Both the position numbers and the translations under genes were made by a program. From Stylophora pistillata (taxonomy: Eukaryota), in NCBI RefSeq assembly GCF_002571385.2, contig NW_019218176.1, positions 1 to 64,000 on the forward strand: a stretch of 64,000 nucleotides of DNA, written 5' to 3'. Numbering within the stretch: position 1 is the first letter of the stretch; each line of letters begins with the position of its first letter. Shown here in pieces: positions 13,599 to 63,170 of the stretch. The notes beneath the pieces were generated by a model. It worked only from the letters and a program-made list of their open reading frames with translations, did not search any database and was not told where the DNA came from.

Positions 13599-13895
13599 CT
13601 AGCAAAAACTAACGATAAAAACCGACGTTTCGGTGTCATCATGACGCCATTGTCAAGGAGAAATAAAAAATGAAGTTTGTGTCAAGGTGTAACACTAAAT
13701 TAGCATAAATATGTTACGAGTTAATTAAACAAATACTTTTACTTTTAATTAGCTCGTAACATATTTATGCTAATTTAGTGTTACACCTTGCTACAAACTT
13801 CATTTTTTATTTCTCCTTGACAATGGCGTCATGATGACACCGAAACGTCGGTTTTTATCGTTAGTTTTTGCTAGTCTTTGCATTTCTAAATCTTT
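13599..13895. mobile_element. Penelope-like element remnant: inverted pLTR pair (~130-bp arms) with a 15-bp target-site duplication
   Basis: Near-perfect inverted repeat 13598-~13727 / ~13744-13875. Flanking direct repeat ATTGTGGAACAAAAA at 13584-13598 and 13896-13910. Arms contain TTGACAA-stem-GAAACGTCGG, resembling Penelope pLTR hammerhead-like ends. Confidence 0.6.
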
Positions 13896-31600: not shown

Positions 31601-34600
31601 TAAAGCTTTTCATAGGCCATTGAATTTGACTTGTATTTTACCTCTGCGAAAAAGACGCGAACTATTTTATTTTAACGGGTTACTATTCAGACTTTAACGT
31701 GACAACTTAAAAAGAAATTTAGATTTCAAAAGAGATAAAAGGATCATCTGCTCGCACGCAAAATTTAGAAGTGGGATTGCATCGAGTTGTGGCGTACGAA
31801 GTTGCCGTTTACGGGGGAGGGGGTAGAAACGGCCATCTAGGCGTATTTTGAGCTTTTCGATTTTCGGAGAAAGAAGAGTGCGATAGTACTTTTTGAAAAA
31901 AAAAAGAAAAATTAATTACGAAATTTTGCAACTGTCGGCGGATTCTCAATATTTATGGCCAGTGGCTCTTAACATTTAAAATGGAATGGTTGGCATGACA
32001 TTAAGACCCCATCTTCAATTTTTTTTTTTGTCAAATACATTCCAATTTACAGAGTAAATAAAAAATTAACTTACAGAGGCATAGCAACAGCTGTAGTTTC
32101 AAATGTTAAATAAAGAAAGAGACAAAGAAGGAAAAAATTTTGCTTAACTTTTAACTCAATAAAAATGTTATGCACTTAGGTGGTGAAGAGAGTTTCAACA
32201 AAGTAGTAAAAAAAGGAACATAAAAAGTGTCACAACTAATAACAATGATAATGATGGTTAAAATATTGTTAATAACTAACAATAATTTATTATTAGTGAA
32301 ATCAGTGGTTTACTCAGAACTCTATGTGCCAAGAAGTTCAACGGTGCATGGTAGATGATAAATCAGAAACAGTAAAAACCTGCCAATAGTACCCAAAAGG
32401 TTTTTCTTCTGCAAACCGAGATGATATTAAATCTACCTAATAGCAAAATTGAAGAGAATTGGAATAGGGGTGAAGTAAAAGTAAGCATAAGCTAGTCCAA
32501 TTTTTGCTTCTGACAACTATTTAGTGGAAAAGGTACCTAAGACAAGATATGAAGAATGAGTCTTACCTGTCCTTCGACGTTTCCAAAAATACCAGCATAC
32601 GAGCAAAATAACAATGACAGCAGCCACTGATCCAACAATATAATACCACACCAGGGATGGACTCCTCACCCTCACAGCTATTGGAATACGTTAAACACAT
32701 GACCATTAGCCAGTCGAAGGTAGCACATGTGATCACGATAATGGAAAGGTTTTTACCCAGTATTACCCACCCTTCCATGGATTCTATCTTTTGCTAGAGT
32801 TTCCCTAGCACATTAGAAGTGGCTCCTATTTTATGGCAGAGATTCCCAGAAAGGTTAATCAAAACTACGTTGTAGAAGAAATAACCGAATAACCATAACG
32901 GGAAGTCTGTTTACAAGCAAAGTGGCCCAACAGGCCAGTGCTTAACTCCCGATCAAAAGTATTTCTACTCCCATCTTCTAGTCTATTGCAGGGTTACCCC
33001 CCAAAGTAGTAGAGAAATAACCTGCTAATTGGATGAAGAACAATATCCATTGCCCAATAGGAAACAAATAATCATGATGATATTGGAACGAATTATACCG
33101 GTATCAAAAAGAAGATTCTAGTGCATTTAAAAGGCCAGGGACTCAAATTTTCATGCGAGACACGTACTTACCACAAAAAAACAAAAAAAACAAAAAAAAC
33201 AAAAAAACAACAACAACAACAACAATGAAAACAAAAAAATAAAAATAAAAAGCAGCCAATAGCATGTTTAAAACAATACAAAACTTTCAGGTTACATTTA
33301 AATTGAAATATTAATTGCTGTTAAATAATAGATTGTTTCTAGGACACTACAATAATGCCAGCTTACTTATTGTCACAGTGGAGCGGGCCACATTTCCTAG
33401 TCTGTTACGAGCTTCACAGGAATATACACCACTGTCCTCCTCCACAACCTTTGCAATAACCAGGTAACTTTTTGTCTCATTCAGTCGCGTAAAGATGTCG
33501 GCTCTCTTCTTTATTTGGTCTCCATTTTTTTTCCAAGTGATATTTACTGTTGCTGCGTTGGCAATGCAAGTTAACCTCAGCTCATTACCTGAAGTGAGGG
33601 TTGGATATGGTTTTGGAATCAATTCCGCAGTTGGTTTTTCTGTGTTAAAAGGAGATATTGTATATGTATACGAATCTTGATTTCTTTATGGAAAAAAAGA
33701 ACTTACTCTCAATACCTTAATAAGGCAACTAGTATAAAAACGAAGTGATCCAAAAGCAACCCTCCAAACGGAATTTCCAAGATGCTTCTAAGTAACCCCA
33801 GACCTAGCCCTTTGTTTCTAATAATATTATCATGACATATTGCACCATTCAATATACAAAACGCTGCAGTGATAAAAATCTATCGGATGAAAATGACCAG
33901 AGTGACCATAACCTAATGTCAAATTCATCACATATAAAAAAGTAATCTCAAACAATTGGTTAATGGCGCATGTGCAACATTTATCCTTCCCACAATTCAT
34001 TACAGTATTTTTCCTAGATACATTACACCCAAGTTAGCATTTGAACTTGTTGACTCAAATTTTCTGGGAGAATTTCCAGGGGTATCAAGACTCTATCTCG
34101 ACATAATTATTATAAGAACCAGTCGTGACACACTGTCAGTTATTTTTGGTCAACCTTCAGACTAGCCAACATTAACAACATCAAAGAGGAAAGAATTGTA
34201 TACTATTATTGCTAAAGTGGATCCATCACCATCATTACCCTAATAGCTATTAAGTTACAGTTACTATTGTTACCATTATTACAATCCTCTTCATCACTAT
34301 CACTAGTATCATTATCATCATTATCATTATTATTATTATTGAGCCTACCAAAAACTTGAAGTGTTGCTGAAGAACTTATTGTATTTGCTTTGTTTTCTGC
34401 TGTGCACTCATATGTTCCTGCCATTTCCTTTTTTGTTCGCGGTGTTTCCAGGAATGATTCCACGAATAAGTCCCGCTCAAAATTCTTTTTATTAATACCT
34501 GATTGGAGTTTACCGCCTTTAAACGTCCACGTCACTTTTGGTGTTGGAACACCTGAAGCACGGCAAGTAAAGTTGACAGGGTCTTCATAAGTAACAGACT

Positions 34601-46600: not shown

Positions 46601-48000
46601 AATGTGTATGGATGATAACAATAGTAGGTGATGACACTAAAATAACAAACATTTGCAATAATAATGTATGTAGAGGATTGGATGATAATATAAAATGATA
46701 GAGATCATGATCCTGATGATAATAGTGAGTGTGAAATTGATAATAATAATTATAGTAATGACTATAACTTAAATATTCAAGCATAAATGTAATGTTAATC
46801 CTAATTTTGGAAAAGGTGAATCTGTGAAAAAGTAGATTAAAAGGCAAAGGCTTTTAGTAGAACTAAACCTTTTAAAAAGGGGTTAAAAAAACTATGATTA
46901 TTCTTTGGACCATCCATGATGTCTGTATTTCAATGAATGTAATATGCCATGTGATTCTTATTCACATGCAATGATTTCACCATCTGTCTGTTACCTTCAT
47001 GGCAGCTGGAGATGTTGTTACATTCCCTCACAAGTGCTCTGCTCCCATCACAGTTTTCCCAGCCATATGCTGGTTCTAGATTAGAACATTCTCTGAACCT
47101 TATCTGTATGCCACTGACTGTTTTGGAGCAGACACTCCAAGCACTCCACTCATTCCAGCCACCATGGACTAACAATGTTTTAATAACAAAGAGTTGAGAA
47201 ACAACAACTTCAAACTTTACCTGGAAGAAGTCGATGTGATCACTTTCTTTTCAGAAATGATGTTTTTTCACTTTGCCTGATCATCATTTTCATTCTGATC
47301 GTGAAACACATAAATTACTAGGGAAATATCGAGTACATTACTTCTGCCTGGGTTAATACACTTTCTTAATTGTAACAAGAGTGTTGGTAAATTTCTAGTT
47401 TCTCATTTCCTTATTTTGTAGAGCTTAAAACTTTCCATTCTATGGTTTCTGTGAATGGGAAGTACATAACACTGATTACTGACTCTCCCTTGGACCGGTA
47501 CAGTTATACACTCGTCTTTGTATTCCACCCCACAAGATACATTGTAGCTCTTTTATACTCCCTAGGATGATCATTGTGTTAGACATTAACATGCTGTAGT
47601 ATATACTGCTAATTCATTCAACCTTATTACCATATCAAAAAGAATAAGGTGAGAAAAAGCAACTTTACCAAATCAAAATACCAACATATGGTAAAAACCT
47701 TGACTGTTGCTCATTAATATCTACAGAATAATGTAAATTGGCTAAAAAGGGGATGGAGCACCTGAGCTTGAATGTTAATAATCATAATGATAACAAGAGG
47801 CTGGCATAACAACGATTACTCACTCTTACCTGGACAATGATTTATGTTGCAAGCTTGGTTCATGTGACTAGGTCCTTGGCAATACATTCCAGGCCACACT
47901 CGCGGTGGATTGGTACAGCTGCGATATCGTCTCTGCGATCCACCACCACAAGTTACACTGCACCTCCCCCATGACCCCCATGAGGACCAACCACCATCAA
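25605..48000 (-). CDS. Multi-exon receptor tyrosine kinase: at least 2 TSP1 - 2 SRCR - 8 Ig - TM - FGFR/RET-type kinase; 5' end not located
   Basis: GT-AG exons read by hand. TSP1 48000-47830 and 47168-46995. SRCR 46307-46035 and 45613-45290. Ig 45091-44828, 44652-44368, 43993-43745, 42868-42623, 41565-41281, 40435-40190, 34633-34349, 33639-33367. All ectodomain exons are phase 1-1 with lengths divisible by 3. TM 32677-32567 ([26 protein letters not shown]). Probable juxtamembrane exon 31148-31087. Kinase exons ~29672-29483 (GRGSFG, VAAK), 29101-28985, 28854-28670, 27941-27822 ([11 protein letters not shown]), 27497-27421 (PIKWTPPE), 27312-27272 (WSYG), 26815-26719, 26375-26279. Last exon 25757-25605 ends in TAG. 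No stops found in these exons. Confidence 0.85.
28027..28552 (-). mobile_element. Probable solo LTR in a kinase intron
   Basis: TGTA...TACA ends, with AATAAA near the minus-strand 3' end (~28100). The flanks GATCA / GACCG could be a decayed 5-bp TSD. Confidence 0.45.
34925..37640 (+). mobile_element. 5'-truncated CR1/L2-group LINE with a 655-aa open RT frame (35234-37201), antisense in an RTK intron
   Basis: [41 protein letters not shown] and FLG motifs. APE tail (NHLPVF) upstream. 3' UTR ends in AATAAAGAATAAATGAATAAA. Confidence 0.9.
37640..39710 (+). mobile_element. Internally deleted second LINE (2A-like motif, PHD finger, APE start, RT C-terminus, 3' UTR)
   Basis: [12 protein letters not shown]; CFSC...[12 protein letters not shown]...WTCSL (PHD); [10 protein letters not shown] (APE start); [16 protein letters not shown]...[14 protein letters not shown]...LPHFKYC (RT thumb); tail ending AAATAAATGATT. 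Confidence 0.75.
38343..38935. mobile_element. Kolobok-like MITE (593 bp), TTAA TSD, AG...CT ends
   Basis: TTAA|AGTGCTACTGCGAC ... GTCGCAGAAGCACT|TTAA (13/14 TIR match). Removing it restores the LINE frame KDILNKVYAK. Confidence 0.85.
39850..40143 (-). mobile_element. tRNA-derived SINE, degenerate
   Basis: Minus-strand head AGCTCATGTTGTAGAGC...GGTTCAACC (A/B-box-like). The central block (CATCCGAGAATACTAAAATGTTTAACC on +) is also seen at ~19740-19805. Confidence 0.5.
41799..42154. mobile_element. Palindromic MITE interrupted by a 216-bp insertion (41858-42073)
   Basis: Outer inverted ends CTTATTAACCGAGC / GCTCGGTTAATAAG. Inner element ACGGAAAG...CTTTCCGT is flanked by ACAGA direct repeats (41853-41857, 42074-42078). 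Confidence 0.65.
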
Positions 48001-50030
48001 CTATCATCAAATTAATTAACATGATTAACATTTTAACATGAGTAACTTCCTGTCAATATTGTAAATGGCATGCCTATACTGCTACTAGTCCTTTCAATTT
48101 TGAAACCATTGTGAAAGCCCAGGCACATAACTTGGCTTAAGGGTGCATTGTCTACCAGAACCCCATATTCACAATAATTATGATTCCAGAAAATGTTTTT
48201 GTGGGATATGACACATTTTTGATACCCCAACAGGAGTCAAGCCTGTAGCTATGATACTTAATAGATGCTTCAGCACTGAATCACAATGCAACTAAACACG
48301 TTTATGCAGACTGATCAAGAAAACATTCCTTTTTCTTTGTAACCAGCCAGGAGGAGAAAAAAAGTCCTATTTCCCAAAAATAATATGAGCTTCAGAGTTA
48401 AAGTGTCCCTGTCTGAAAAAGTATTCCAAGAGACAAAACTGGTGGTCAACCGATTTGGCTGAAACTTGGCACAAAAGTTGAGTGTGATATAATATATTTC
48501 AAAAGCCAGTTGGCTCATTTCTCTGACGGTTTGTTCTGGAGTTTCAGGGGGGTCCCATTTGTGGCCTATGGAGCACCAAAAATTCATTCTTCTAGGTGGC
48601 AATTTGAAAGTGCTATAAAACTCCATTGGTAAATTGTGCTGCCAAATGAATTTGACCATGGACACTGCTATAGTGGAGCTTCTAATTCATAAATATAACT
48701 TTGTTCTCAAGCGATTAGACAGAGAGTGGCCTGGGACTAAAGTTAGGTCAAATTTGAGGTCAAAATCACTACCCAAAATTGCCATTTTTCAAAAAAAACA
48801 TAACATTTACCTGCCTTCTTGCCTGACTTTCATACCAAATCCAGTATCCCTTACCGAATGGACAGATATGTAAAGTATCTGCAACTATCTGTCTCATATG
48901 TTACAGTACTGCACAATGTCTGTAATGGTTTTATTCATATTTGCAGAATATCTGCAATTATGTTTGTACATATTTCACAGATATGTAGGGACTTCTTTCA
49001 AATATCTGCAAAGTATCTGAGGGAATTGACATATATTTAACATATATGTAGGTGATCAAACAGAGTAAGTTAGAAATCGAGGACCTAGCCATCTTTTAAA
49101 TTGTCATCATATGCCAGTCATGATATTTGAATTTCCCCTACTAGGAGACTATAATTTATTTGATTAAATGCTGACAAATAATTGAGTGTCCAAACTACCA
49201 AACTTTTAAACAATTAACTGTGCAAAACTACTAAGATCTCTATGGAAAATAGCATATTGAGTGACATGTAATGTGTCCTTCAACAAGAACAAATACTGAT
49301 TAAAACTGTGGGGTCCAGAAAAAATTCACACAACTAATTTTCTATCTGCACATCAACTTACTTGCTTTGCGAATCTAACATGAAAACAGCTCAACCTTTT
49401 AATAAACAAGTGGGTCATTGTTTTCTTCAAAAGTGTTTTGCGTACTTGGATCAGCTGTCCCGCCATTATCGATCGTCAACTGAACCTAAATCTGAAATAA
49501 TTTCATTACTGTTTGGTTCTTCTACGTTTTCATAAACATGTGAAGGAAGTTCTTTATAATTTTGTACTTCGACGCAATCCACAAGTTAGCCTGAATCAAA
49601 AACTGTGTCCTGCAGAGTGAATCCCGACCATCCATTTTCAGCTGTTGAAGAGAATTCGAAACTAGCGATCCATCGATGTGATCTTCAACACAGTGGAGTT
49701 AATAGAGGGGTTGGTCTGAAATTATTACAGCCTGGAGCTTCGATTAAAGCATTCCTCACAAGACAACTCAAGCTTTGGTAGCAAAGGATTTACTACGGAA
49801 CGAAAAGGTGTTGAAATGCTTGCGTTGCTTTAATCAGTCGATTAGGCCGCTGGATGGACGAGGGGTGGAATGGGACCAAAAGTAAAAAACGCGTTTGATT
49901 GGATATGCTGAAATTAGCCATTTTCAAAACGAGCGGCGGTCTGGGTACGATTTGCCACCATAAAGGCTCTTGGGATCGTTTGGAGGGACAGCGTGAAGGT
50001 AAACAAACGCACAGCTGACGTGTGACAAAC

Positions 50031-51539
50031 ATGGCACACTATAACTGCTGTATTCCAGGCTGCACTAATAGTTACAGAAATGCACCTAACCTTCAGTATT
50101 ATAGAATTCCAAAAGACCCTCATATACGTAGAAAGTACGTGGTTCTTATGAGGAACGAGACTCTGAAATTAGATTCTACGAGTACGCGGATTTGCTCAGT
50201 TCATTTCGATGGAGGAGAAAAACTTAGCAGAACGCACTTGCCTTCAATTTTTCCATGGACAAAACCGACAGCTCAACGTAGAGAACGCAAGAGGGCCAGT
50301 TTCGAAGATGTACAGAAAATAGAGCAAACCAAAAAAAGAAAAACAGCACTTGCTCAATTACCACAGGAAGCGAACTTTAAATTTGAAGAACAGACAGAAA
50401 ATATGAATGTTAATGCTGACACCAGTACCAGTGTGGAAATGCAAACGTTACTTACTGGAGACCAACTAAACAGTTTATACAACAGAATGCAAACAAGAGA
50501 ACAAGAAATTGTTAAGCTTAAGGGAGAGATTCAGCAGTTGGAGAAAGAAAACAACAACATAAAAGAGGTGAACAGCAAATTACAAAAGGAAATCGAAAGC
50601 TTGAAGCATGCTTTAGATAACAATAGATTTGACATAAGCAAATTTAAAGATAAAGATGATGATATTGCATTCTACACCGGCTTTCCCGATTACAATGCTT
50701 TTATTCTTTGTTACAAAACTGTAGAACAAGCCTCTAGCAATATTAATTATGGGCACAAAAGGACCACCACGAACGGTAATGTTGGGAGACCCAGAGTACT
50801 TACTAAATTCCAGGAGTTTACCCTTGTTATGCTGCGCTTGAGGCTGGGTTTGTTTGAGAATGATCTTGCTCATCGATTTTTGGTTTCAAGATCAACTGTC
50901 TCTAAGATTGTAAATGCCTGGATTCCATTTTTGAGGAGGGAATTTGAACCTCTTATCATCATCCCCCCAAGAGAAGTACTTCAATGTTATAGGCCTGACA
51001 GTTTTAAGAAACTGTTGCCTAACGTAACAGTCATTGTCGATTGCACGGAATTTGAAATGGAGAGGCCATCTGCTCTTGATTCACAGTCTACCTGTTTTTC
51101 ATCATACAAGTCAAGAACCACCATGAAATCACTGTTGGGCATAACGCCAAGCGGTGTTTTATGTTTTGTGAGTGACTTATTTCCTGGTTCAACCTCAGAT
51201 AAGGAAATAACTGTTCTTAGTGGTTTTCTAGACAGACTAAATCCTGGTGACCAGGTACTGGCTGACAAAGGGTTCAATTGTCAGGATGAATTAGCTTCTG
51301 TTGGTGCAAGCCTTGTTATACCAAAATTTTTAGAACAGAAGATACAGTTTTCCACAAATGAAACAAATCACAACAAGGTGGTTGCTAGCCTAAGAGTTCA
51401 TGTGGAGCGGCTCATGGAACGTATAAAGAACTGGCACATCTTCGACCATAAGATACCAATTACTATTGCACCTATTGCATCAGACATGCTTGTAGTGGTC
51501 TGTGCTTTGTCAAATTTTCAACCCCCTCTTATAAATTAA
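50031..51539 (+). CDS. THAP-domain DDE_Tnp_4 (Harbinger/ISL2EU-type) transposase, intact
   Basis: THAP C2CH (CCIPGC...ICSVHF...PSIF), coiled coil, HTH (LRLRLGLFENDLAHRFLVSRSTVS), catalytic VDCTE, LADKGF and RVHVER motifs; uninterrupted ORF from ATG 50031. Confidence 0.92.
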   Translation: MAHYNCCIPGCTNSYRNAPNLQYYRIPKDPHIRRKYVVLMRNETLKLDSTSTRICSVHFDGGEKLSRTHLPSIFPWTKPTAQRRERKRASFEDVQKIEQTKKRKTALAQLPQEANFKFEEQTENMNVNADTSTSVEMQTLLTGDQLNSLYNRMQTREQEIVKLKGEIQQLEKENNNIKEVNSKLQKEIESLKHALDNNRFDISKFKDKDDDIAFYTGFPDYNAFILCYKTVEQASSNINYGHKRTTTNGNVGRPRVLTKFQEFTLVMLRLRLGLFENDLAHRFLVSRSTVSKIVNAWIPFLRREFEPLIIIPPREVLQCYRPDSFKKLLPNVTVIVDCTEFEMERPSALDSQSTCFSSYKSRTTMKSLLGITPSGVLCFVSDLFPGSTSDKEITVLSGFLDRLNPGDQVLADKGFNCQDELASVGASLVIPKFLEQKIQFSTNETNHNKVVASLRVHVERLMERIKNWHIFDHKIPITIAPIASDMLVVVCALSNFQPPLIN

Positions 51540-51703
51540 AAATTATCATGTAATATTGTTAACTGTCATGACACATGTTGATGATGAAACACGAAAACAT
51601 TCATATTGCAATAACTTTCATTAAATGGTGTAATGAAATAAATTTTGTTTGGACCAAACAATAATATTGGTATTGAAATTGGAGTCAAATGAGTGATTCA
51701 AAT

Positions 51704-53185
51704 TCAGCNCCCCTGCTTTAATAATTTGTAAGCAGCTATGATCCTGTCCTCCATTTCAAGTCCTTCTTGCATGTATTTACTCTGAAATGGTTTTTTGTAA
51801 CCAAGGACATCTTGGATGATTTTTGTTGGTGATGTTGTTTCCCTTTGCACAGCTATTCTGTAACAATTTGTAGCAGTAATCCTGGGCTGCCTGTGATGAT
51901 GCCACAAATTTGAGTTTGACTGCCCTCGTGTTTGCTCTTCTACTTTCTTTATTTTTTCTTCATCAAAATTAATGTTCCTCTTCACTTTCTCAAATCTCAC
52001 TCTTAGTTCATCAGCTGATATTGGATGACATTTGATGGGTGAGATGAGTGGCTCTTCCAGATTATTTACCTTTTGAGGAAGAATATGTGTCCATCCAACA
52101 GCTCTCCCAGATTTCATTTGATATTCTTTTAAAGATTTATGGAAGTTTTGTAATCTTTCACTTGGCCAGACTTTTTTTTCTGATACACAGGTACCATTCT
52201 GTGCTGGACATGAGGCTAGCTTTGGCCTTTTTGCTTTCTTTTCTTTAGCATAATCATGTTTGACAAAGCTCATCTCAGAGATAGGTGTCACTGGACCCTT
52301 GCGTTTCCCTGGCACATTCCATTTACAAGGCTTAGATGTGCAGGACTCAGCTGCATCCGAATTTTTCCTTTTCGTCTCCTTAAAGCTTTGTTCAAGGGCA
52401 AACAATGTAGATGCCACATGGTTACAACGGCCATCAATACCAGCAGGACACTTACAGTGTGCTTTTAACACACAACCTATGGATGACATTAACAGAAAAC
52501 AAGAGTATACTTTATCTTTTTTCATCGATGGCAGAACTTGGCTTTTTACATAATGTTTTCCATTTTGGTGCAGATGTCCAATGTATAAAACATGCCCTGA
52601 CTTGAAGAAGTTAAATCCCTTGACTAGGGGCTTTGCAGTGGAAAGTTGTTTTTTACTTTCAACTCCTTCAATCATAAACTGCCAAACGGTTCCAAAAGCT
52701 ATCTTAGGCAAATCTTTAAAATCAGGTTTGTATCCTTCTTTTGGAAAGAATTGGTTGAGCTGCGGCTCTTCCTCCTCCAGCACTCCAAGTTGAGCCTTCT
52801 TGCGGAGAAGGTGTAGTCCACCGTCTGGATCACGGAGATATTTAACGTCTAGTCCATGCTTAATGTAATCTTGAACTCTGAAAAATATGAACATGATATA
52901 TGACTGGAATGAAACAAAATAAAACGACACAATTTCTCCTTCGATATAATTTAAGCTCATATGTACACCACTAAATGAAAATATACACCTCGAGTGAACC
53001 TACCTTGTTATCAATGCTTTCTTATTTCCCGTAGTCTTTGCTCCCCTGCACAGCAACCACCTTTTCAATTGAACGACGCTACATTGTTCTACAGTTTCGC
53101 GAGGAATTTTTGCACCAGGTATATCTTCTTCTGTCAGAATAACCTTGAGAGCGTCTCGCACGGTTGCATTGCTCTTGTCCACCAT
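51704..53185 (-). CDS. Two-exon SAP-like + SWIM + YqaJ (lambda-exonuclease-like) protein, C-terminally cut at an N
   Basis: Exon 1 53185-53004 (VVQLKRWLLCRGAKTTGNKKALITR, SAP-like), a GT-AG intron in frame, then exon 2 from 52877. SWIM motif CKCPAGIDGRCNHV. YqaJ start TRGQSNSNLWHHHRQPRITAT...GLEME. The sequence breaks at n 51709 before the catalytic D/ExK motifs. Confidence 0.8.
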
Positions 53186-55784
53186 GTTCTTGCTGTCCCT
53201 CCAAACGATCCCAAGAGCCTCTAGGGTGGCAAATCGTACCCAGACCGCCGCTCGTTTTGAAAATGGCTAATTGCACAGCTTTTTCGGTAAACTTTGTTCT
53301 TTGGCGGCACTTTTGTTTTCTTTTCGTGGTGTGATAAATTTCAGTTATTCAAACGCTTACACGTGGCGTCGTTTTAGCGTTTGAATAACTTTGTTCGGCT
53401 TACAAATAAAGATCAGCTCTACAAAATGTCAAAAAGGAATCAACGAATTACCAAAGCATCAACACGTTTTCAAGAGGTTAATGGTGAGTGACACCCATTT
53501 TTTTAGCGGTGAAACTTAAAATTTTTTTTTGTTTATTTCGTTCATAGTTGTGAATAATGACCTTATCGAAACTACGAAATAATTGTTTGTAGCAAGACGT
53601 ACTTCAAACGGATAAGCTTAGTTGCTGATACCTTGTTTCCCTATAGACTTTCACCTTGTGAAATTTACTGAGGATGGAATAAAGTGCTTGTACGGTAGAG
53701 GTAAAGTTGAGATTGCCGGTGATAATGTTGAGGCAGGCTCCTTGTGTGACACGTTCTGGGAGGATGCAAATAGCAAAGGGCTGGTTCCCAGCGATAATTC
53801 TCACTTTTCGTGGTATTTTAACTGAATAACCCCTCATTTTTTCTTTTTTATCTCAACAATTCAATTCCTTAAATGGTCCTTTGCCTCTATTTCATGTTTC
53901 AAAGGAAAAGAGTGTTTGATAAAACTACTATGAATTACTTTCTTCTTTGCCAGTAACTAAGCCATCATGATGATACTTTTTTATGAAGTGATAGTCTTTT
54001 GCAGAATTGATTACTACTTCCCTTGCTAACCAAGCTTACACTGTCACTTTGGACCGTGTCTTTCATCATTTTGATTGACTGATTATAGTTAGGGAAGGGG
54101 TCTATTCTAAGTGGTGATCTCATCAATCTCTGGCAATCTAGGTACAGTGTGCAAGGTCAAACAAACTACTGTACTCTCCTTGGTTGAAATTTTTGTTAGT
54201 ATTTTAGATTATGAAACTCCATGTTACCAACATAATCAACTGTCGCGCTGTTTGTTGGTAATCCACAATTTCAATCATTTAAGAACTTACTTGAACATTT
54301 GTCTTTTCATTGCTTCCTAGGTTTTGTTCTGGATGAGAAAAATTATAGAAAACAGGCTGCCACAGTTGTAAATAAAACCTTGCAAGATAAGTGCTGTGGA
54401 GCTTGTAGAGGAGTTTAAAAGAAAAAAAACCAAAAACAAATTGAAAACCGCTAGAACTTTAGCACAATTTTATGATTATTCCTGTACTTTTAAATTATTT
54501 TTTAGGTTTTATATGTTCTTGTTGATTAGAAGAGAAATAAAAATTGCATACTTACTTAATTTATATCAATAAACTATGTTAAGTAGATAACATTGAAATG
54601 TCTTATTCACTTGTTCTTAATCAATGAACTATATACACTGGTACCCTATGCCACCCCTGATAGTCTCCCCTTATGGCCACAGTAGGGATCCACAGATAGC
54701 TAACATATCTGTAGTAGCAGATATTTCCACAGATATGTAAATACTGTTGGTTTTTCATATCTGTTACGTATCTGTCACAGTTAGAAATTTTGGGCCAAAT
54801 TCCTATATGTTACAGATATGTTACAGATAGGTCATGAAGATATTTCACAGATATGCTGCAGACCTGAAGAACATATTTGTAGCCTCTCTGCCCGTTTGGT
54901 GAGGGATGTACTTTAGTGACCCATTTACCAAAATCAGTCGAGAAAAATTTGGCTTACTAAGCTTTGTTAAGTTTTTGGCACAAACTATGCCCTTCTAAGG
55001 CATAGCAAATTGGGATTTTGAGCACAATCCCTGCTATAAACAGACCAAAGTCTTGACATAACGCCTTTATTTTGTATTTGGTGAGTTAAAATGAAACATT
55101 TAACCCAAATCAATGTCATTATCTAGAAATACCTCGTCTCGTAGCTGATAATTACTCTAAGAAGGCCTCTGCATGATTAGCACTGCAAACACCCAGCGGT
55201 TTAGCGAAATGAAGGTAATTTTTTTCCTATGAAAACCTTGTACTCATCATAGAGCACAAATGATGATGTTCTAACCTAGATAAGGCAATATTTTTTAAAG
55301 ATGATTGAATTTTCTCTGATCTATGTTTGTTAACCATATTTCCATACATAACTAAGCATGCAAAGTGTCTATATTTTGTCAGGCCGCTTTTTAATTTAAA
55401 ATAAACTGACCTTAACCCAGCCTTAACCTTTAAGCTCAGAATAAAACGATCGTCAAAAGATGATCTACGCCTGACCTTTGAATAGACTGAATAGCTCTCG
55501 CAAATAACCATCACTCCCTCAGCATGACTTTAAGCTGACGTGCCGCAGTCACCACCTTCCAGGTGACTTGTGATCCATCAGAGATCTTAGGTATTTGAAA
55601 ACCAAATAAATGGAAGCATCCGACACAGAGGAAACCCACAGTCAGAAGAGCTGGATGACAAAAAATTACTGTTGCTGTTAAAATGAAATATTCCACACGA
55701 GACATGAGATGATGCCAATAGAGCCCGCCATTTTGGACGTGAGAGTATTAGGACCGGACCGAGTTTCCATTCCTCCCTTTATTC

Positions 55785-56660
55785 TATGGGTATCCATCCT
55801 CGCCAAAATTCAAACTTGTTGTTCAAACATTGAATTCGTCACTTCAAACATTGAATTCGTCACTTCAAACATTGAATTCGTTACTTCAAACGATGATTTC
55901 GTCACTTCAAACATTCAATTCGTCACTTCAAACATTCAGTTCGTCACTTCAAACATTCAATTCGTCACTTCAAACATTCAATTCATCACTTCAAACACTC
56001 AATTCGGCAATTCAAACGTCCCATTCGGCGATTCAAAGATTCAATCGTCCTATTCGGCAATTCAAAGATTCGATTTGTCAATCAAACGTTCACTTCGTCA
56101 TTTCAGAAATTCGATTCGTCAATTCCAACATTCATTTCGACAATTCGAGGGTCTTCGTTTTCGTACTGTTGTATCTTAGGAAATTCAAGGACGAAATTAT
56201 AAACAAACCAGCGATGAACATGAACATTTCAAGATCTTTTTATTCCTGTTCTTTTCTGCGCAGGCGCATCAATGTACACGTAACACAGCTATGACGTAAC
56301 TTAATATAATGTAACACAAGTATAACAAAACAAGGTCACGATATAACGGTACCAACCAACTTTAAATGTCGAGAGTGGATGTCGAAAGTGAATGTCGAAA
56401 CTTTGAACATCGAGAGTGAATGTCAAAATTGCCATTTCAACCGGCGAATTGTCCAATTGAATGTTGGAATTGACAAATCGAATGTCTGAAATGACGAAGT
56501 GAATGATAGACTGACAAATTGAATCTCTGAATTGCCGAATAGGATGTTTGAATCTTTGAATTGCCGAATGGGACGTTTGAATTGCCGAATTAAGTGTTTG
56601 AAGTGACGAATTGAATGTTTGAACAACAAGTTTGAATCTTGGCGGGGATGGATACCCATA
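55785..56660. mobile_element. Non-autonomous IS3EU-like element (TATGG...CCATA) with 21-bp internal tandem repeats
   Basis: TIR TATGGGTATCCATCC(T/C)CGCCAA(A/G)ATTCAAACTTGTTGTTCAAACATT. 6-bp flanks TTATTC / TCATTC differ by one base. About 8 copies of TTCAAACATTCAATTCGTCAC at 55822-56000, with inverted copies at the right end. Confidence 0.7.
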
Positions 56661-56835
56661 TCATTCAAATGTAAATGTTCTTGTTCTTATCAGGATGGGC
56701 TCCTGTCCTTATCAAGTATTAAAAGTATAAAAATAAGTTTCAGGATAATTTTACGATGGCACTTGCTTCCTTTAGAGAGGTAAATGATCAGTGCGGTGCC
56801 GCGTCATGGGCTGTGCACGAAACGGCATGTACTAA

Positions 56836-56960
56836 CACCGGAACACCCTGGAACACCAGAACACCGGAACATCCCGAAACCCCGGAACACCCCGGAACAC
56901 CCCGGAACACCCCTGAACACCGGAACACCCCGGAACACCCCGGAACACCAGAACAGGCGA
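56836..56960 (+). repeat. CCGGAACAC(C) short tandem repeat followed by a 15-bp-stem hairpin at 57036-57069
   Basis: Repeated GGAACACC units; ATGTAATTTGTTTAC-CCAC-GTAAACAAATTACAT. Confidence 0.75.
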
Positions 56961-58245
56961 AACATACCTGAACACCGAATTTGACGGTGTTGTTGTTTTT
57001 TTTCCATTACAGATCATGTAAAAAATAAAATGTAAATGTAATTTGTTTACCCACGTAAACAAATTACATCTGTTTACGTGGGTAAAAAATTGCTTTTAAA
57101 TTGCTTTTTTAGTGCCACTCTTGCTAAGAATGGTCCTCTCAACTTCTCGTCGAAAACAAAATTTCCTTAATTTTTTCCCTATGAAAAGGGTTTAGGACAC
57201 ATGTTTCAAAGATAGTTTGAAGGTTTTTCAATTCTCTTTTGAATGAAGATTTCAACTTTCGCGAACTCTCTGCCAAGGAAAGATTAGCCAAGGTGTTGCA
57301 AAAGCAAAAACTCAGTCAACTACAGTCATTGTGCGAGTTTTTTTGACGTTAAAATTATAGTTAGTACTAATCGTAAGGCATCGTATCGTGAACCTCTTCT
57401 ACAGTAAGCAAATTCCTGTGATAGCCGCAAGTGATGGTCCAGAAACCCCCGTCACTCAAAACTCAGTGGATGTTGCGTGACTCCTCGACTTGGTCCAGTC
57501 CTCTCATTTTCACGTCCAATATGGTGGGTCAGTCGATACAATAATAATCACATCTCGAGGTGTTGCATGGCATGTGTCATATGAACTGCAAAACAAAGTA
57601 TTTGTTATCCAGCTCTCCTAACTGTGGATTTCTTATTTACTGCCGGATGATTTGATTTATTCAGCTCTAACGTTCTAGAAAAATCGGATGGATCACAACT
57701 CACCTGGATGCTACTCACTACAAACTGTATGTATCATCCTGCTCTTTCACTGATGCCATCATGCGTATTTAAAAGAGCTAGCAAGGCCATCAAAAGTTTA
57801 ACCATAGATCTTCTGTCAACGGTCGTTTTCGTTGAGCTCACTTCATATTGCATCAAGAAATGGGCCTGACAAAATATAAAGACTTTGTATGCTTGTGAGT
57901 ATAGTATCATGACCTGGAAATATAAATCAGAGGAAATTCAAGCATCTTTTAAAAAATATTGCCATATCTAGGCCAGAACATCATCATTTCTGCTCTATGA
58001 TGGGTACTAGGTTTTCAAAGAAAAAAAGGTACCTTTATTTTGCTAAACTGTTAATAGCAAAACCATAAGACCCCAGCTTGTTCTGTTTTCTTGCCAGATC
58101 TTAAATTTATTAATGTAGTTGTAATTTGTCTAGAATTTTGAATCTCTTGCTCTGTAAATCTATTATTATTTTATAATATACTTATTAAACACTGCCCGCC
58201 TCGAATAGCCTTTGCTAACTACAGGCAGTGCATATTTTTTTGCAG

Positions 58246-58300
<55 letters not shown>

Positions 58301-58317
58301 GTAATGATAATAATAAT

Positions 58318-58985
58318 GAAAACTTTATTTGTGTTTTCAAATATACAATTGTAAATGTCACTACGTATAGGCAATTTACAAATGCTGCTTGAGATTGGCT
58401 TATTCAATACACACACAACTGAAATCAAAATTGCATCAAATCTGGGTTGTCCCAATTCCTATTTCTGTAACAAAAGATGTAACATGTTGCTCTAATTGCT
58501 ATATTTATCATTTTCTTGATTATGTAAAGTTGCTGCTTTTGGGCAATGCCTATGTCATTCATCATGCCTAAGAACGTAGAGCATTTATCTGAGAAAATGC
58601 CAAGGGAGCTCATGTAGAGATTTACAAATTTCACACATCTGAAAGTTCTACTCATTTCGTTAATCAAGTTCTGATATTTTTCTTTTTTACGTACTGCATT
58701 GTTGTACAAGTTAGATTTGAAACCAACCGTTAATTCTAGAACATATAGGCACTTGGACTGGGCTAGGAAAAGAAGATCTGGGTGATAATTTTCACCAGTT
58801 ATTATTGAGGGATTTAGAAAACCAATAACATCTGCATAGATTGAGGAGCTAACATTAATTACAGGTTGAAGGGACTTGGTAATGAAGTTAAGGATTGAGT
58901 CGTGTCTCCAGGTAAAGCGATCAACGCATTGTTGACAACCAGTGACAACATGAAGGAGTGACTCAGGATTGAGGCAAAGGGACAA
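58318..58985 (-). mobile_element. 5'-truncated restriction-like-endonuclease non-LTR retrotransposon (R4/Dong-like) inserted in a (TAA)n microsatellite
   Basis: ORF 58425-58985 has a CCHC knuckle (LCLNPESLLHVVTGC), then RHDSIL, HPDLL, VLELTV and RKKEKY, i.e. RLE motifs. (TAA)n tracts flank both sides (58247-58317, 58985-59048). Confidence 0.75.
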
Positions 58986-58995
58986 TAGTAATAAA

Positions 58996-59049
<54 letters not shown>

Positions 59050-59258
59050 CTTGTAAACTTGTGTTTGTAGTTCTAATCACTGATAGGCCTTCTTAGAGTA
59101 ATTATATGCTATGAGTCGAGGTGTTTCTAGATAAAGACTGCTTTGGCTTTAATGTTTCATTTTAACTCACCAAATACAAAATAAAGGTTTTATGTCAAGA
59201 CTTTGTCAAGACTTTTATATCAAGACTTTGTCAATTTGTTATGCCTTAGAGGGGCATG

Positions 59259-59436
59259 CAATGCTTTCAATAAGACCCGGCACCCGCCGGAGCACCGGCG
59301 GGTATTCTGTTGTGAATCGCCCAGTATATTTCACCGCGCTCAAGTCACAGTCACCACACTAAGTCTCAATCAAGTCTCTTTCCGGCGGGTGTTGTACCGA
59401 GGTAGCCACCTATTTCAAATCTTATTGAAAGCATTG
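59259..59436. mobile_element. 178-bp MITE with perfect 17-bp TIRs (CA...TG)
   Basis: CAATGCTTTCAATAAGA / TCTTATTGAAAGCATTG with GGCATG duplicated on both sides; absent from the left host arm. Confidence 0.8.
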
Positions 59437-59681
59437 GGCATGGAGAGTTTGTGCCAAAAACTTAACAAACCTTAGTAAGCAAAATTTTTCTTGACTGATT
59501 TTGATAAATGGGTCTCTAAAGTACATACTGGATTTGGTATGAAAGTAATGCAAGAAGGCAGGTAAATGTTACGGTTTTTTGAAAAATGACAATTTTGGGT
59601 AGTGATTTTGACCTCAAATTTGACCTAACTTTAGCCCCAGGCCCCTTTCTGTCGAATCACTTGAGAACAAAGTTACATTTA

Positions 59682-62262
59682 TGAATTAAAAGCTCCACTA
59701 TATTAGAGTCTATGGTCAAATTCATTTGGAAGCACAATTTTCCAATGGAGTTTTATAGCACTTTCAAATTGCCACCTTGAAGGATGAAGTTTTGGTGCTC
59801 CATAGGCCACAATTATGGGACTCCCCCTGAAACTCCAGAACAAACAGTCAAAGAAGTGAGCCAAACAGGCTTTTGAAATATCTTATCACACTCAACTTTT
59901 GTGCCAAGTTTCAGCCAAATCGGTTGACCACCACTTTGGGCTCCTGGAACACTTTCTCAGACAGGGACACTTAAGATTTTGGATGTGATGTTCCACCAAT
60001 GAGCTACATCAAAATCAATAGTGAATTCTTGCATACTGCTTTGATGAGTGAAAGTGTCACGTAAGGAAATAGACTAAAGGCAATTTTTTTTTTATCAATA
60101 GCTTGATGTATTGCTATAGCCAGACAAGTTACGTAGCCTTTACCATGAAAGAAAATCATGATAATGATATATGATAATGATAATGAAAAGAAAAAACGGA
60201 AAAGGAAGGTATTTGAGCTGTAAATAATAATGACAGCAACTAATAAATGTAACAATGTCCACATGATTATCTGAGAAGACCTGATCCTACCAAATTCTAT
60301 CCTTAAAGAAGTATTATCAATTATTATAACTACATCCACATGATAAAGAGCTCTTGAACATTTGAAGACACTTACCACCTGTTTTGTGCACAAGCATCCA
60401 AATGAAAAGGAAAAAGATGAAATTAAATTGAAAAAATAATAACTATCATAATGATAAAAACAACCATTTCTTAAGATATTATTACTAGGTATCATATTGA
60501 ATTAAGAGCTCCACTATATTAGAGTCCATGGTCAGATTCATTTGGAAGCACAATTTTCCAATGGAGTTTTATAGCACTTTCAAATTGCCACCTAGAAGGA
60601 TGAAGTTTTGGTGCTCCATAGGCCACAATTATGGGACTCCCCCTGAAACTCCAGAACAAACAGTCAAAGAAGTGAGCCAAACAGGCTTTTGAAATATCTT
60701 ATCACACTCAACTTTTGTGCCAAGTTTCAGCCAAATCGGTTGACCACCACTTTGGGCTCCTGGAACACTTTCTCAGACAGGGACACTTAAGATTTTGGAT
60801 GTGATGTTCCACCAATGAGCTACATCAAAATCAATTGTGAATTCCTGCATACTGCTTTGATGAGTGAAAGTGTCACGTAAGGAAATAGACTAAAGGCAAT
60901 TTTTTTTTTTTATCAATAGGTTGATGTATTGCTATAGCCAGACAAGTTACGTAGCCTTTACCATGAAAGAAAATCATGATAATGATATATGATAATGATA
61001 ATGAAAAGAAAAAACGGAAAAGGAAGGTATTTGAGCTGTAAATAATAATGACAGCAACTAATAAATGTAACAATGTCCACATGATTATATGAGAAGACCT
61101 GATNNNNNNNNNNNNNNNNNNNNNNNNNNNNNNNNNNNNNNNNNNNNNNNNNNNNNNNNNNNNNNNNNNNNNNNNNNNNNNNNNNNNNNNNNNNNNNNNN
61201 NNNNNNNNNNNNNNNNNNNNNNNNNNNNNNNNNNNNNNNNNNNNNNNNNNNNNNNNNNNNNNNNNNNNNNNNNNNNNNNNNNNNNNNNNNNNNNNNNNNN
61301 NNNNNNNNNNNNNNNNNNNNNNNNNNNNNNNNNNNNNNNNNNNNNNNNNNNNNNNNNNNNNNNNNNNNNNNNNNNNNNNNNNNNNNNNNNNNNNNNNNNN
61401 NNNNNNNNNNNNNNNNNNNNNNNNNNNNNNNNNNNNNNNNNNNNNNNNNNNNNNNNNNNNNNNNNNNNNNNNNNNNNNNNNNNNNNNNNNNNNNNNNNNN
61501 NNNNNNNNNNNNNNNNNNNNNNNNNNNNNNNNNNNNNNNNNNNNNNNNNNNNNNNNNNNNNNNNNNNNNNNNNNNNNNNNNNNNNNNNNNNNNNNNNNNN
61601 NNNNNNNNNNNNNNNNNNNNNNNNNNNNNGGCTTTTGAAATATCTTATCACACTCAACTTTTGTGCCAAGTTTCAGCCAAATCGGTTGACCACCACTTTG
61701 GGCTCCTGGAACACTTTCTCAGACAGGGACACTTAAGATTTTGGATGTGATGTTCCACCAATGAGCTACATCAAAATCAATAGTGAATTCTTGCATACTG
61801 CTTTGATGAGTGAAAGTGTCACGTAAGGAAATAGACTAAAGGCAATTTTTTTTTTTTATCAATAGGTTGATGTATTGCTATAGCCAGACAAGTTACGTAG
61901 CCTTTACCATGAAAGAAAATCATGATAATGATATATGATAATGATAATGAAAAGAAAAAACGGAAAAGGAAGGTATTTGAGCTGTAAATAATAATGACAG
62001 CAACTAATAAATGTAACAATGTCCACATGATTATATGAGAAGACCTGATCCTACCAAATTCGATCCTTAAAGAAGTATTATCAATTATTATAACTACATC
62101 CACATGATAAAGAGCTCTTGAACACTTGAAGACACTTACCACCTGTTTTGTGCACAAGCATCCAAATGAAAAAGAAAAAGATGAAATTAAATTGAAAAAA
62201 TAATAAATATCATAATGATAAAAACAACCATTTCTTAAGATATTATTACTGGGTATCATATT
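59682..62262. repeat. Near-identical ~816-bp tandem duplication (at least 3 copies, gap-interrupted) of the foldback right end plus flank
   Basis: GGGACACTTAAGATTTTGG recurs with TTAA at 59971, 60787 and 61733; the junction is at ~60497-60503. Confidence 0.8.
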
Positions 62263-62399
62263 GGGTCAAAATTGGGTCAAGATCAGTATTGTATTGTTAC
62301 ACTCACTTGCTCATCTCGACAACATAATTATCTGGCTTTGCCCTCTATAAGAGGCAGTCACCACAAACATTTACTGACTTGAATACCAGCATTGTTAAA

Positions 62400-63170
62400 A
62401 CCCAGGCACATAACTTGGCTTAAGGGTGTGTTGTCTACCACAACCCCATATTCACAATTATTATGACTACAGAAAATGTTTTTGTGGGATATGACATATT
62501 TGTGACGCCCCAACCTGAGTCAAACTTACAGCTGCGATCTTCAATAGATGCTTTAGCACTGAACCACAATGCAAATAAACACAGTTAAAATGGAGACTGA
62601 TCAAGAAAAATGTTCCTTTTCCTTTGTAACCAGCCAGGAGGAGACAAAAAAGTCTTATTTCCCCAAAATATGAGCTTCAGAGCTTAAGATTTGTTATGTG
62701 ATGTTCTGCCATTGAGCTACATCAAAATCATTGGTGAATTTCTGCACTTTGATGAGTGAAAGCATCACATAAGGAAATAGACTAAAGGTAACTATTTTTT
62801 TTGTCAATAGTTTGATGTATTGCTATAGCCAGAAAAGTTATGTAGGCTTTACCATGAAAAAAAAAATCATAATATATGATAATGATAATGAAAGAGCAAA
62901 AATGGGAAAGGAAGTTGTTTGAGCTGTAAACTAATACTGACAGCACTTAATAATGTCCACATGATTAAGTGAGAAGACCTAATCCTACCAAATTCAATCA
63001 TTAAAGAAGTATTATCAATAACTAGTCATCCACATGATAAAGAGCCCTTGAACATTTGAAGACACTTAACATCTGTTTTGTGAAGTGAAGCATCCAATTG
63101 AAAAGGAAACAGATGAAATTAAATTAAATAAACAATAATTATCATAATGATAAAAAGAATCATTTTTTAA
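62400..63170. repeat. Older diverged paralog of the foldback's flanks, carrying the empty insertion site
   Basis: 62401-62683 aligns with 48118-48397, and 62688-63170 aligns with 59975-60480. The two halves are joined by one TTAA. Confidence 0.85.

What the first reader, a model, noticed from the sequence alone, without database searches (positions are those of the whole stretch)
48398..59974. Nested transposon stack: a ~1.3-kb-armed Kolobok-like foldback holding at least six other elements, with empty sites visible in the window
Seen: after removing insertions, the host is almost entirely one inverted repeat. The arms still match deep inside (ACGTCCAAAATGGCGGG vs ACGTCCAATATGGTGGG; GATGGATCACAAGTCACCTGG vs GATGGATCACAACTCACCTGG), and identity appears to fall from the termini inward. 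Insertions: the CCC element containing ISL2EU, an IS3EU-like element, a GGAACACC element, a LINE tail containing the Dong-like element, and a 178-bp MITE. The opposite arm supplies the empty site for each arm insertion, and 62684 supplies the host's. Known: Kolobok has TTAA TSDs and RR...YY ends, usually with short TIRs. Inference: an undescribed long-TIR family acting as an insertion sink, possibly able to move its cargo as an 11.6-kb unit.
Basis: partly seen in the sequence, partly recalled or inferred. Interest (0 to 1): 0.7.

Follow-up and report, generated by a model that had tools for sequence, protein, structure and literature searches.

The report
Old mirror-armed transposon holding seven passengers
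One old copy of a common, gene-less jumping element with two 1.3-kb mirror-image arms contains seven other jumping elements, which likely landed one at a time after it settled and show no sign of having moved as a package, and the family's two arms likely overwrite each other from the tips inward.

Summary
The nest is real. The host (48403-59970, TTAA on both sides) is one copy of a multi-copy, non-coding 3.33-kb family with 1.31-kb arms and a 0.72-kb spacer; cargo-free copies are common. Seven inserts were confirmed: CCC/2-bp-TSD element, a very young ISL2EU inside it, IS3EU-like element, truncated Mutator-type fragment, LINE tail, Dong-like fragment, 178-bp MITE. An N hides about 696 bp, so the stack is about 12.3 kb. 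Ends read TTAA|GTG, not RR, so the Kolobok end rule fails on the TTAA reading. Sola3 (features recalled) fits best; no transposase partner was found. No other copy carries any of this cargo's junctions. The closest sampled host copy is under 90% identical inside, while the ISL2EU is 100% identical to its sisters, so movement as a unit is not supported. A family-wide insertion sink is not shown (19 of 31 two-ended copies have no insert; SINE density inside vs flanks p=0.06-0.78). The best new result is the arm gradient. It is a family trait (97-100% to 61-68%), and a copy's two arms share private mutations about nine times more often than arms of different copies, which points to arm-to-arm conversion. 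Likely a new family of a known kind.

The parts
48398..48401 (.). Left TTAA target-site duplication (followed by an extra A at 48402 that most copies lack)
48403..48847 (+). Host left arm, outer part (consensus 1-444), starts GTGTCCC
   Evidence: 93% to family consensus
48848..54905 (.). CCC...GGG non-autonomous DNA transposon, AT duplication; 2-bp variable TSD in 4 of 4 other copies whose two ends were read; ACAGATAT subterminal repeats; CMC (Chapaev/EnSpm)-like by recalled signature; cargo-free copy 2788 bp
49915..53269 (.). ISL2EU transposon (TAGCC..GGCTA, AT TSD) nested in the CCC element; 100% identical to a 4051-bp copy elsewhere; the N at 51709 hides about 696 bp
50031..51539 (+). ISL2EU ORF1, 502 aa: THAP + HTH_Tnp_4 + DDE_Tnp_4, open frame
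51704..53266 (-). ISL2EU ORF2 (SAP-like first segment, alkaline-exonuclease/YqaJ-type second segment), cut by the assembly gap in this copy
54906..55761 (+). Host left arm, inner part (consensus about 445-1310)
55785..56660 (.). IS3EU-like non-autonomous element, 876 bp, TATGG..CCATA ends, 6-bp TSD TTATTC/TCATTC (5 of 6), 21-bp internal repeats; inserted at the start of the host spacer
56661..56823 (+). Host spacer, left part
56824..57097 (+). Left end of a GGCATG-ended, GGAACACC-repeat element (9-bp TSDs in 6 of 6 two-ended copies found among 7 loci checked, 7-9 of 9 matches; Mutator-like) plus hairpin filler; its right end and about 170 bp of host are lost
57098..57488 (+). Host spacer, right part
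57489..58048 (-). Host right arm, inner part
58051..58246 (+). 3' tail of a multi-copy LINE (CR1/L2-like by recalled motif in the upstream part of other copies); no clean TSD
58320..58986 (-). 5'-truncated non-LTR retrotransposon with a restriction-like endonuclease C-terminus (Dong/R4-like, motif recalled; no Pfam hit) between two (AAT)n tracts (58247-58318, 58984-59049); 7 of 7 other copies inspected also end in (AAT)n
59060..59258 (-). Host right arm, middle part
59259..59436 (.). 178-bp MITE, CAATG..CATTG, 6-bp TSD GGCATG; exact 6-bp TSD in 5 of 7 other copies (1 masked by N, 1 shifted)
59437..59970 (-). Host right arm, outer part, ends GGGACAC
59971..59974 (.). Right TTAA target-site duplication
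62390..63170 (+). Older paralogue of both flanks, with a single TTAA at 62684-62687: empty site of the host

Best explanation
The stretch is one copy of a multi-copy, non-coding 3.33-kb DNA element with 1.31-kb inverted arms and TTAA at both ends; it was likely moved long ago by another element's transposase (most likely Sola3-type), then likely stayed in place while seven unrelated elements landed in it one by one, and its two arms are likely kept alike by copying from each other from the tips inward. Shown: the family, its ends, the empty paralogous site, the seven inserts with their boundaries, the absence of duplicated cargo junctions among scored hits, the arm-identity gradient and the excess of within-copy shared mutations. 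Inferred: cut-and-paste mobilisation in trans, the Sola3 link (about 50%), the order of arrival (from nesting and best-hit identities), and intra-element gene conversion or hairpin-templated repair as the cause of the gradient. The stack is large because it is the upper tail of ordinary nesting in an old, selectively neutral copy, and each insert enlarges the target.
For: Family: 183 and 208 first-look candidates. 54 exact terminal 15-mers against 0 for the control pattern. Consensus of 3.33 kb from 24 copies with no ORF over 108 aa. 31 of 83 loci hold both ends, 8 of them cargo-free at 3.1-3.4 kb. Ends: T/T/A/A at the four TSD positions in 47/49/51/52 of 57 ends, then GTG in 47/52/52. No cargo copy: in each junction search only the window's own hit spans both sides (40 candidates scored per search). 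Age gap: the window copy is 91.5% identical to the consensus and at most 89.8% to any other sampled copy in the interior. Best hits for the passengers are 89-91% (Mutator-like), 93-95% (LINE tail), 95% (CCC), 96% (Dong-like), 97% (MITE; IS3EU-like over 76 bp) and 100% (ISL2EU, 8 other copies). Arm gradient in the consensus, per 100 columns: 97-100% to 600, 94% at 600-700, 80-87% at 700-900, 61-68% at 900-1310. Within-copy arms are 91.0% identical vs 88.0% between copies (26 copies, Wilcoxon p=1.6e-6). Shared derived sites number 249 vs 62 expected (24 copies). Private shared mutations average 3.4 per copy vs 0.37 in 574 random pairs; 13 of 26 copies have 3 or more vs 0.7% of pairs; none lie at CpG and 45 of 88 are transversions. 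L097 and L172 carry right-arm-type tracts in the left arm up to position 865-869.
Against: Five primary inserts in one copy is rare even for this family (Poisson mean 0.84 per full copy, P(5 or more)=0.0018), so a locus effect or mild enrichment may add to chance. Counting three SINEs at host breakpoints as inside gives 8 vs 11 in flanks, p=0.056. No autonomous partner was found, so the superfamily rests on end sequence and recalled features. 13 of 26 copies show fewer than 3 private shared mutations, so conversion is not universal. Shared mutations could have been inherited from unsampled masters, or partly come from short-read assembly. Each DNA search scored only 40 candidates.
Confidence: 0.8

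Rival explanations
1. The family is an insertion sink: its long inverted arms form cruciforms or breaks, or open chromatin, that attract other elements.
For: The window copy has 5 primary inserts (P=0.0018 under the family mean). Other heavily loaded copies exist: L101 with 4 inserts over 9.4 kb, C185 at 13.2 kb, C36 at 17.7 kb. SINEs are 8 inside vs 11 in flanks if boundary cases count, p=0.056. Nested inserts in Galileo copies are described (PMC2775673, passages).
Against: 19 of 31 two-ended copies have no insert, and 32 inserts over 154.6 kb are spread along the whole element. The strict SINE count is 5 inside vs 14 in flanks, 3.2 vs 2.7 per 100 kb, p=0.78. None of the window's seven passenger families was found in other host copies. 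Flanks include exons, so a neutral element should hold somewhat more inserts anyway. PMC2775673 attributes the pile-ups to low recombination.
Confidence: 0.12
2. The host can or did move the whole 12-kb stack as one unit.
For: Both ends and both TTAA sites are intact.
Against: No second copy of any junction. No shared insert at the same position in copies with different flanks. No sampled host copy is above 96% to the consensus, and the interior pairs at 95% or more mostly share flanks, whereas the last passenger is 100% identical to its sisters. The two extra right ends at 60790 and 61736 share the same flank, so they are tandem or assembly duplicates.
Confidence: 0.03
3. The mobiliser is a Kolobok transposase. 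The true ends are AGTG..CACT (RR..YY) with a TA duplication inside T-TA-A, or this is an atypical Kolobok.
For: The junction TTAAGTG can equally be read T|TA|AGTG. The window and L046 ends carry an extra A, as a variable-length TSD would give. KolobokP TSDs vary (3-4 or 4-5 bp; PMC9587614 passages). The genome has many PF20700 loci (116 matches).
Against: Kolobok is defined by a 4-bp TTAA TSD plus RR..YY, and on that reading the ends are GT..AC. In the 6 of 20 PF20700 loci where TTAA-bounded ends were recovered, they start GG with about 20-bp matches. The only consensus hits were a family copy lying next to one locus (L155) and one 47-bp weak hit. I take PF20700 to mark Kolobok-type transposases from recall.
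Confidence: 0.18
4. The structure is a local inverted duplication, or two independent insertions in opposite orientation.
For: Nothing beyond the low inner-arm identity.
Against: The same arm-spacer-arm layout recurs at many loci with unrelated flanks, and each inner arm type is 89-94% conserved across copies. The empty site has one TTAA.
Confidence: 0.01
5. The arm-sharing signal comes from unsampled subfamilies or from assembly mixing of the arms, not from conversion within resident copies.
For: Two subfamilies with their own arm-wide alleles are visible. The assembly has many gaps, and L035's arms are 98.4% identical.
Against: No other of 115 scored arms shares more than 2 of the window's 8 rare variants. 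The arms still differ by about 5-17% in all copies but L035. Even inherited sharing needs arm-to-arm copying in an ancestor.
Confidence: 0.2

Closest known systems
Sola3 group of the Sola superfamily (Bao et al. 2009; paper not held, features recalled; the group's existence is confirmed in PMC4455052 passages)
   Same: TTAA duplication; arms of several hundred bases to over 1 kb; G-x-G start; reported from cnidarians (all recalled for Sola3)
   Different: Starts GTG, where I recall GAG as typical; no transposase found; arms of 1.31 kb with a diverged inner half
Galileo two-TIR copies of Drosophila (P superfamily; PMC3573991, PMC2775673, passages)
   Same: Non-autonomous copies made almost wholly of long TIRs (to about 1.26 kb); proposed TIR-to-TIR recombination and conversion; nested secondary inserts
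   Different: Galileo has 7-bp TSDs and TIRs 95-100% alike within a copy. Here the TSD is TTAA and the arms show stepwise strata down to about 65%
Kolobok superfamily (PMC9587614, passages)
   Same: TTAA-specific duplication; present in cnidarians
   Different: Ends GT..AC rather than RR..YY on the TTAA reading; Kolobok-type loci here have short GG-starting ends and no arm homology
piggyBac and coral CMITEs (PMC2872659, passages)
   Same: TTAA duplication; found in corals
   Different: No CC[C/T]T terminal motif; 12-19-bp TIRs and about 100-bp MITEs there, against 1.3-kb arms and 3.3 kb here
ISL2EU (PMC4122938, passages) for the insert at 49915-53269
   Same: THAP-DDE transposase plus exonuclease ORF, 2-bp AT TSD
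   Different: Nothing found; an ordinary, very young member

Membership tests
Kolobok (host) | TTAA 4-bp TSD | tested here: met
   the TTAA vs TA-in-TTAA reading cannot be told apart from sequence
Kolobok (host) | 5'-RR..YY-3' termini (PMC9587614) | tested here: not met
   GT..AC after TTAA; met only on the alternative TA-duplication reading
Kolobok (host) | Autonomous relative with a Kolobok DDE transposase sharing the ends | tested here: inconclusive
   none in 20 loci taken from 116 PF20700 matches
piggyBac (host) | CC[C/T]T terminal motif (PMC2872659) | tested here: not met
Sola3 (host) | TTAA TSD (recalled) | tested here: met
   the feature itself is recalled
Sola3 (host) | Long TIRs of several hundred bases or more (recalled) | tested here: met
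Sola3 (host) | 5'-GAG terminus (recalled) | tested here: inconclusive
   GTG, one mismatch; the source paper was not held
Sola3 (host) | Sola3 transposase in an autonomous relative | tested here: inconclusive
   no Pfam model for Sola (PMC5751038); 20 loci from 56 PF25273 matches (used as a Sola marker from recall) show no long TTAA arms or family homology
ISL2EU (insert 49915-53269) | THAP + DDE transposase | tested here: met
ISL2EU (insert 49915-53269) | Second ORF with YqaJ-type exonuclease | tested here: met
   PF01771 E=2.8e-6; complete frame in copy L286
ISL2EU (insert 49915-53269) | 2-bp AT TSD | tested here: met
IS3EU (insert 55785-56660) | TAYGG..CCRTA ends and 6-bp TSD (PMC12730594) | tested here: met
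   TATGG..CCATA; TSD 5 of 6
IS3EU (insert 55785-56660) | IS3EU transposase in a relative | not tested
   non-coding copy; partner not sought
Mutator/MuDR (fragment 56824-57057) | 9-bp TSD (9-12 bp in PMC4122938) | tested here: met
   6 two-ended copies, 7-9 of 9 matches; this copy has lost its right end
CMC/EnSpm-Chapaev (insert 48848-54905) | 2-bp variable TSD, CCC ends, subterminal repeats (CCC signature recalled; 2-5 bp TSD range in PMC12730594) | tested here: inconclusive
   2-bp TSD in 4 of 4 plus the window; no transposase seen in 7 longer copies; the ends are not the usual CA..TG

The most novel reading that the evidence does not exclude
The host belongs to an unclassified lineage of TTAA|GTG long-armed DNA transposons, outside Kolobok, piggyBac and Sola3. 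Its arms are rewritten from the tips by ongoing arm-to-arm conversion, which leaves datable strata like those of palindromic chromosomes, and those arms also raise the rate at which other elements land in it.
Probability: 0.1. Interest if true: 0.6.

Novelty: new member of a known kind. Interest (0 to 1): 0.3.

Why it matters
As a nest it is ordinary, but fully resolved. It gives empty sites and a relative order for eight element families and flags an ISL2EU family that is probably active now (8 other identical copies). The more useful point is the family. Its arms show a stepwise gradient and copy-private shared mutations, so it is a natural, countable test bed for conversion between long terminal inverted repeats, a process proposed for Galileo. 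It also means that dating such elements by arm divergence underestimates their age. It does not show a new cargo-carrying vehicle.

Tried and rejected
Search for an autonomous partner, all negative: ORF scans of the family loci; 20 PF20700 loci; 20 PF25273 loci; the loose pattern TTAAGWGTCCC, which was no better than its control (296 vs 325). The 10-kb insert in the C185 copy has its own short TIRs and a TTAC duplication, so it is a passenger. The 1.9-kb insert in L111 is a separate TTAA element. A shared insert in several copies proved to be an abundant tRNA-derived SINE at different positions. Three metagenome contigs continue past consensus 1636 with another interior that has no convincing ORF and has no match in the own genome; the atlas look-up of its longest frame gave no answer. 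Presence/absence: an assembled piece of run X14 spans the left junction with no differences (48012-48469), but it may be the source individual. Four raw-read runs (X19-X22) have essentially no depth at 48042-48377 at 90% likeness, so this flank haplotype seems absent or diverged there, but no clean empty allele was seen and nothing is concluded about polymorphism of the stack. I could not decide TTAA vs TA duplication: no pair of ends with complementary changes was seen by eye. The Sola paper, Yuan and Wessler 2011, Kojima's review and Caceres 2001 were not held. No supplements were read; Repbase-type sequence lists in supplements could hold this family.
Full report
Setting. The window is G000:C392:1-64000 of a 398-Mb, 5513-contig animal assembly. 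It is probably a coral, going by run labels and earlier AI notes; this was not tested further. The stack lies just upstream, on the minus strand, of TSP1-type exons at 46981-47175 and 47846-47941. Whether it sits in an intron was not established.

1. Observation. Self-BLAST and alignment show the two arms from 48401/59972 inward, at 91% in the outer 450 bp and 71% in the innermost block, broken by inserts. A paralogue of both flanks at 62390-63170 joins them across a single TTAA at 62684. The five hits of a search with that paralogue all lie in this window. The quoted deep motifs are present.

2. The host is a family. The outer arm gave 183 candidates, 40 scored. The interior gave 208, 40 scored. 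The exact terminal 15-mer occurs 54 times against 0 for its reversed control. I fetched 97 family stretches and built a 3.33-kb consensus from 24 copies. It has 1.31-kb arms, a 0.72-kb spacer and no ORF over 108 aa. Fourteen stretches were dropped before counting, as duplicates, halves of split loci or empty (L057, L062, L063, L067, L092, L095, L105, L115, L116, L119, L168, L183, L184, L185). Of the 83 left, 31 hold both ends, with spans of 0.48-9.4 kb, and 8 are cargo-free at 3.1-3.4 kb. Of 19 metagenome contigs with the terminal 18-mer, 16 match the family at 81-95%, from two data sets, and 3 are chance hits. Three of them carry a different interior after consensus 1636 that the own genome lacks, as separate deletion derivatives of a longer ancestor would.

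3. Ends. Read from outside, 57 ends give T, T, A, A in 47, 49, 51 and 52 cases, then G, T, G in 47, 52 and 52; several misses are truncated or misaligned ends. Position -4 is C in 26. Further ends read the same way. So the element is TTAA|GTGTCCC...GGGACAC|TTAA. The extra A at 48402 is not the family norm. Kolobok needs RR..YY and piggyBac needs CC[C/T]T (PMC9587614 and PMC2872659, passages); neither is met on this reading. The equivalent reading, TA duplicated inside T-TA-A with AG ends, cannot be excluded. Kolobok-type loci in this genome start GG with short repeats and share nothing with the arms. TTAA plus very long arms plus a G-x-G start is what I recall for Sola3; the paper was not held, and no partner transposase was found. 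I put Sola3 at about 50%, Kolobok at about 18% and another or unknown group at the rest.

4. Passengers (boundaries). (i) CCC..GGG element 48848-54905, AT duplicated; 2-bp variable TSD in 4 of 4 other copies read. (ii) ISL2EU 49915-53269 inside it: THAP-DDE ORF and exonuclease ORF. Eight other copies are 100% identical over 500-650 bp, and a full copy of 4051 bp shows that the N at 51709 stands for about 696 bp more. Run X14 also shows an unknown stretch there. (iii) IS3EU-like 55785-56660, with TATGG..CCATA ends and a 6-bp TSD as in PMC12730594 (passages). (iv) Left end of a GGCATG-ended, 9-bp-TSD element at 56824-57057 plus hairpin filler, with about 170 bp of host lost. (v) LINE tail 58051-58246. 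(vi) Dong-like fragment 58320-58986 between (AAT)n tracts (the label rests on recalled motifs, and Pfam gave no hit). (vii) 178-bp MITE 59259-59436 with a 6-bp TSD. Five inserts are primary and two are nested in other passengers.

5. Did the cargo move? Every junction search returned only the window as spanning host and passenger (ISL2EU-CCC; 40 candidates scored in each, and a true duplicate would rank at the top). The window copy is 91.5% to the consensus and at most 89.8% to any other copy over the interior. No sampled copy exceeds 96% to the consensus. The passengers' best hits run from 89-91% to 100%. The stack was therefore finished long after the family's last visible activity (inferred). 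The two further right ends at 60487-61103 and 61630-62263 carry the same flank at about 99% and are tandem or assembly duplicates.

6. Is it a sink? There are 32 inserts in 154.6 kb of host, spread along the element. The 31 two-ended copies hold 0 (19 copies), 1 (7), 2 (4) or 4 (1) inserts. The mean is 0.84 per full length, and P(5 or more) is 0.0018. The sample favours insert-poor copies, and two copies longer than 10 kb (C185, C36) were split and not counted whole. With 100-200 copies, 0.2-0.4 such stacks are expected, and the window was picked for being one. A SINE used as a yardstick occurs 5 times inside vs 14 in 521.5 kb of flank (p=0.78), or 8 vs 11 if three breakpoint cases count as inside (p=0.056). 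A mild excess is possible; targeting is not shown. Pile-ups in Galileo copies were explained by low recombination (PMC2775673, passages).

7. The gradient. In the consensus the arms are 97-100% alike to 600, 94% to 700, 80-87% to 900 and 61-68% to 1310, while each inner arm type is 89-94% conserved among copies. The gradient is therefore older than this insertion. Within a copy the outer 600 bp of the arms are 91.0% alike vs 88.0% between copies (26 of 28 copies measurable; p=1.6e-6). In the tree the two arms of one copy are sisters in 10 cases, support 0.89-0.997. Shared derived sites number 249 vs 62 expected. Private shared mutations average 3.4 vs 0.37 in control pairs, none at CpG. The window's 8 rare shared variants lie on both sides of the CCC and MITE sites, and no other of 115 arms has more than 2 of them. 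L097 and L172 have right-type tracts reaching 865-869 in the left arm. Against: half of the copies show little sharing, and inheritance from unsampled masters or assembly mixing is not excluded. The likely mechanism (inferred) is repair of one arm off the other, starting near the ends and reaching inward less often, so the inner halves drift apart. Marzo et al. propose such TIR-to-TIR repair for Galileo (PMC3573991, passages).

8. Novelty. Ten full-text searches listed no description of this family, but they were by keyword, and Repbase and Dfam could not be queried, so 'undescribed' is unproven. Papers were seen as passages only: PMC9587614, PMC5199201, PMC5751038, PMC8634313, PMC4455052, PMC3573991, PMC4122938, PMC12730594, PMC2872659, PMC2775673; no supplements. 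Verdict: a real, well-resolved nest in an old copy of a long-TIR non-autonomous family. It is probably not Kolobok, has not been shown to be a sink and has not carried its cargo. Interest 0.3, mostly for the arm-conversion record and the young ISL2EU.

Noticed in passing
window 49915-53269; G000 C157, C1812, C1411, C1068, C847, C58, C45, C297: ISL2EU family with at least 8 other copies 100% identical over 500-650 bp and AAT before the left end in 5 of 5 inspected; probably active now
   Followed up: partly
window 60487-61103 and 61630-62263: Two extra copies of the host's right end plus flank, about 99% identical, either side of a 526-N gap: tandem duplication or assembly redundancy
   Followed up: partly
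window 48042-48377: Essentially no read depth at 90% likeness in four runs labelled as the same species, while 47850-48041 is covered by several diverged variants: the flank may be a variable tandem unit
   Followed up: partly
L192:2890-3420, L201:3830-4100, L203:480-1000: Metagenome relatives of the host share a different interior after consensus 1636, with CCAAT-like motifs, absent from G000; a lead towards the autonomous ancestor
   Followed up: partly
G000:C185:488735-498772 (L105, L049): 10-kb element with about 55-bp TIRs (AACAC), TTAC duplication and PF25273 exons (Sola-like, recalled) inside another host copy
   Followed up: partly
G000:C36:1144400-1162270 (L168, L169): 17.7-kb host copy holding LTR-retrotransposon and LINE sequence
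   Followed up: no
window 17560-18488: 929-bp element with 400-bp arms, CACAG..CTGTG ends and an apparent CACCAGC duplication, just above a VWA-like exon (17211-17633, minus strand)
   Followed up: no
window 13593-13880; 29896-31953: A 288-bp near-perfect palindrome, and a 2-kb element with interrupted inverted arms
   Followed up: no
window 1-12800: Tandem array of GPCR-like single-exon genes (for example 4467-5183 and 7616-8653), 77-81% alike
   Followed up: no
window 17211-47941, minus strand: VWA-, Ig-, SRCR- and TSP1-like exons, possibly one or more multidomain extracellular genes (only TSP1 checked against Pfam)
   Followed up: partly
L087:1636-3810, L099:3120-3508, L113:2623-2983: tRNA-derived SINE of about 250 bp in tandem and fold-back arrays inside several host copies
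   Followed up: partly
window 59205-59230 and 56661-56703: Short local duplications with small replacements inside the host, like templated end-joining scars
   Followed up: no
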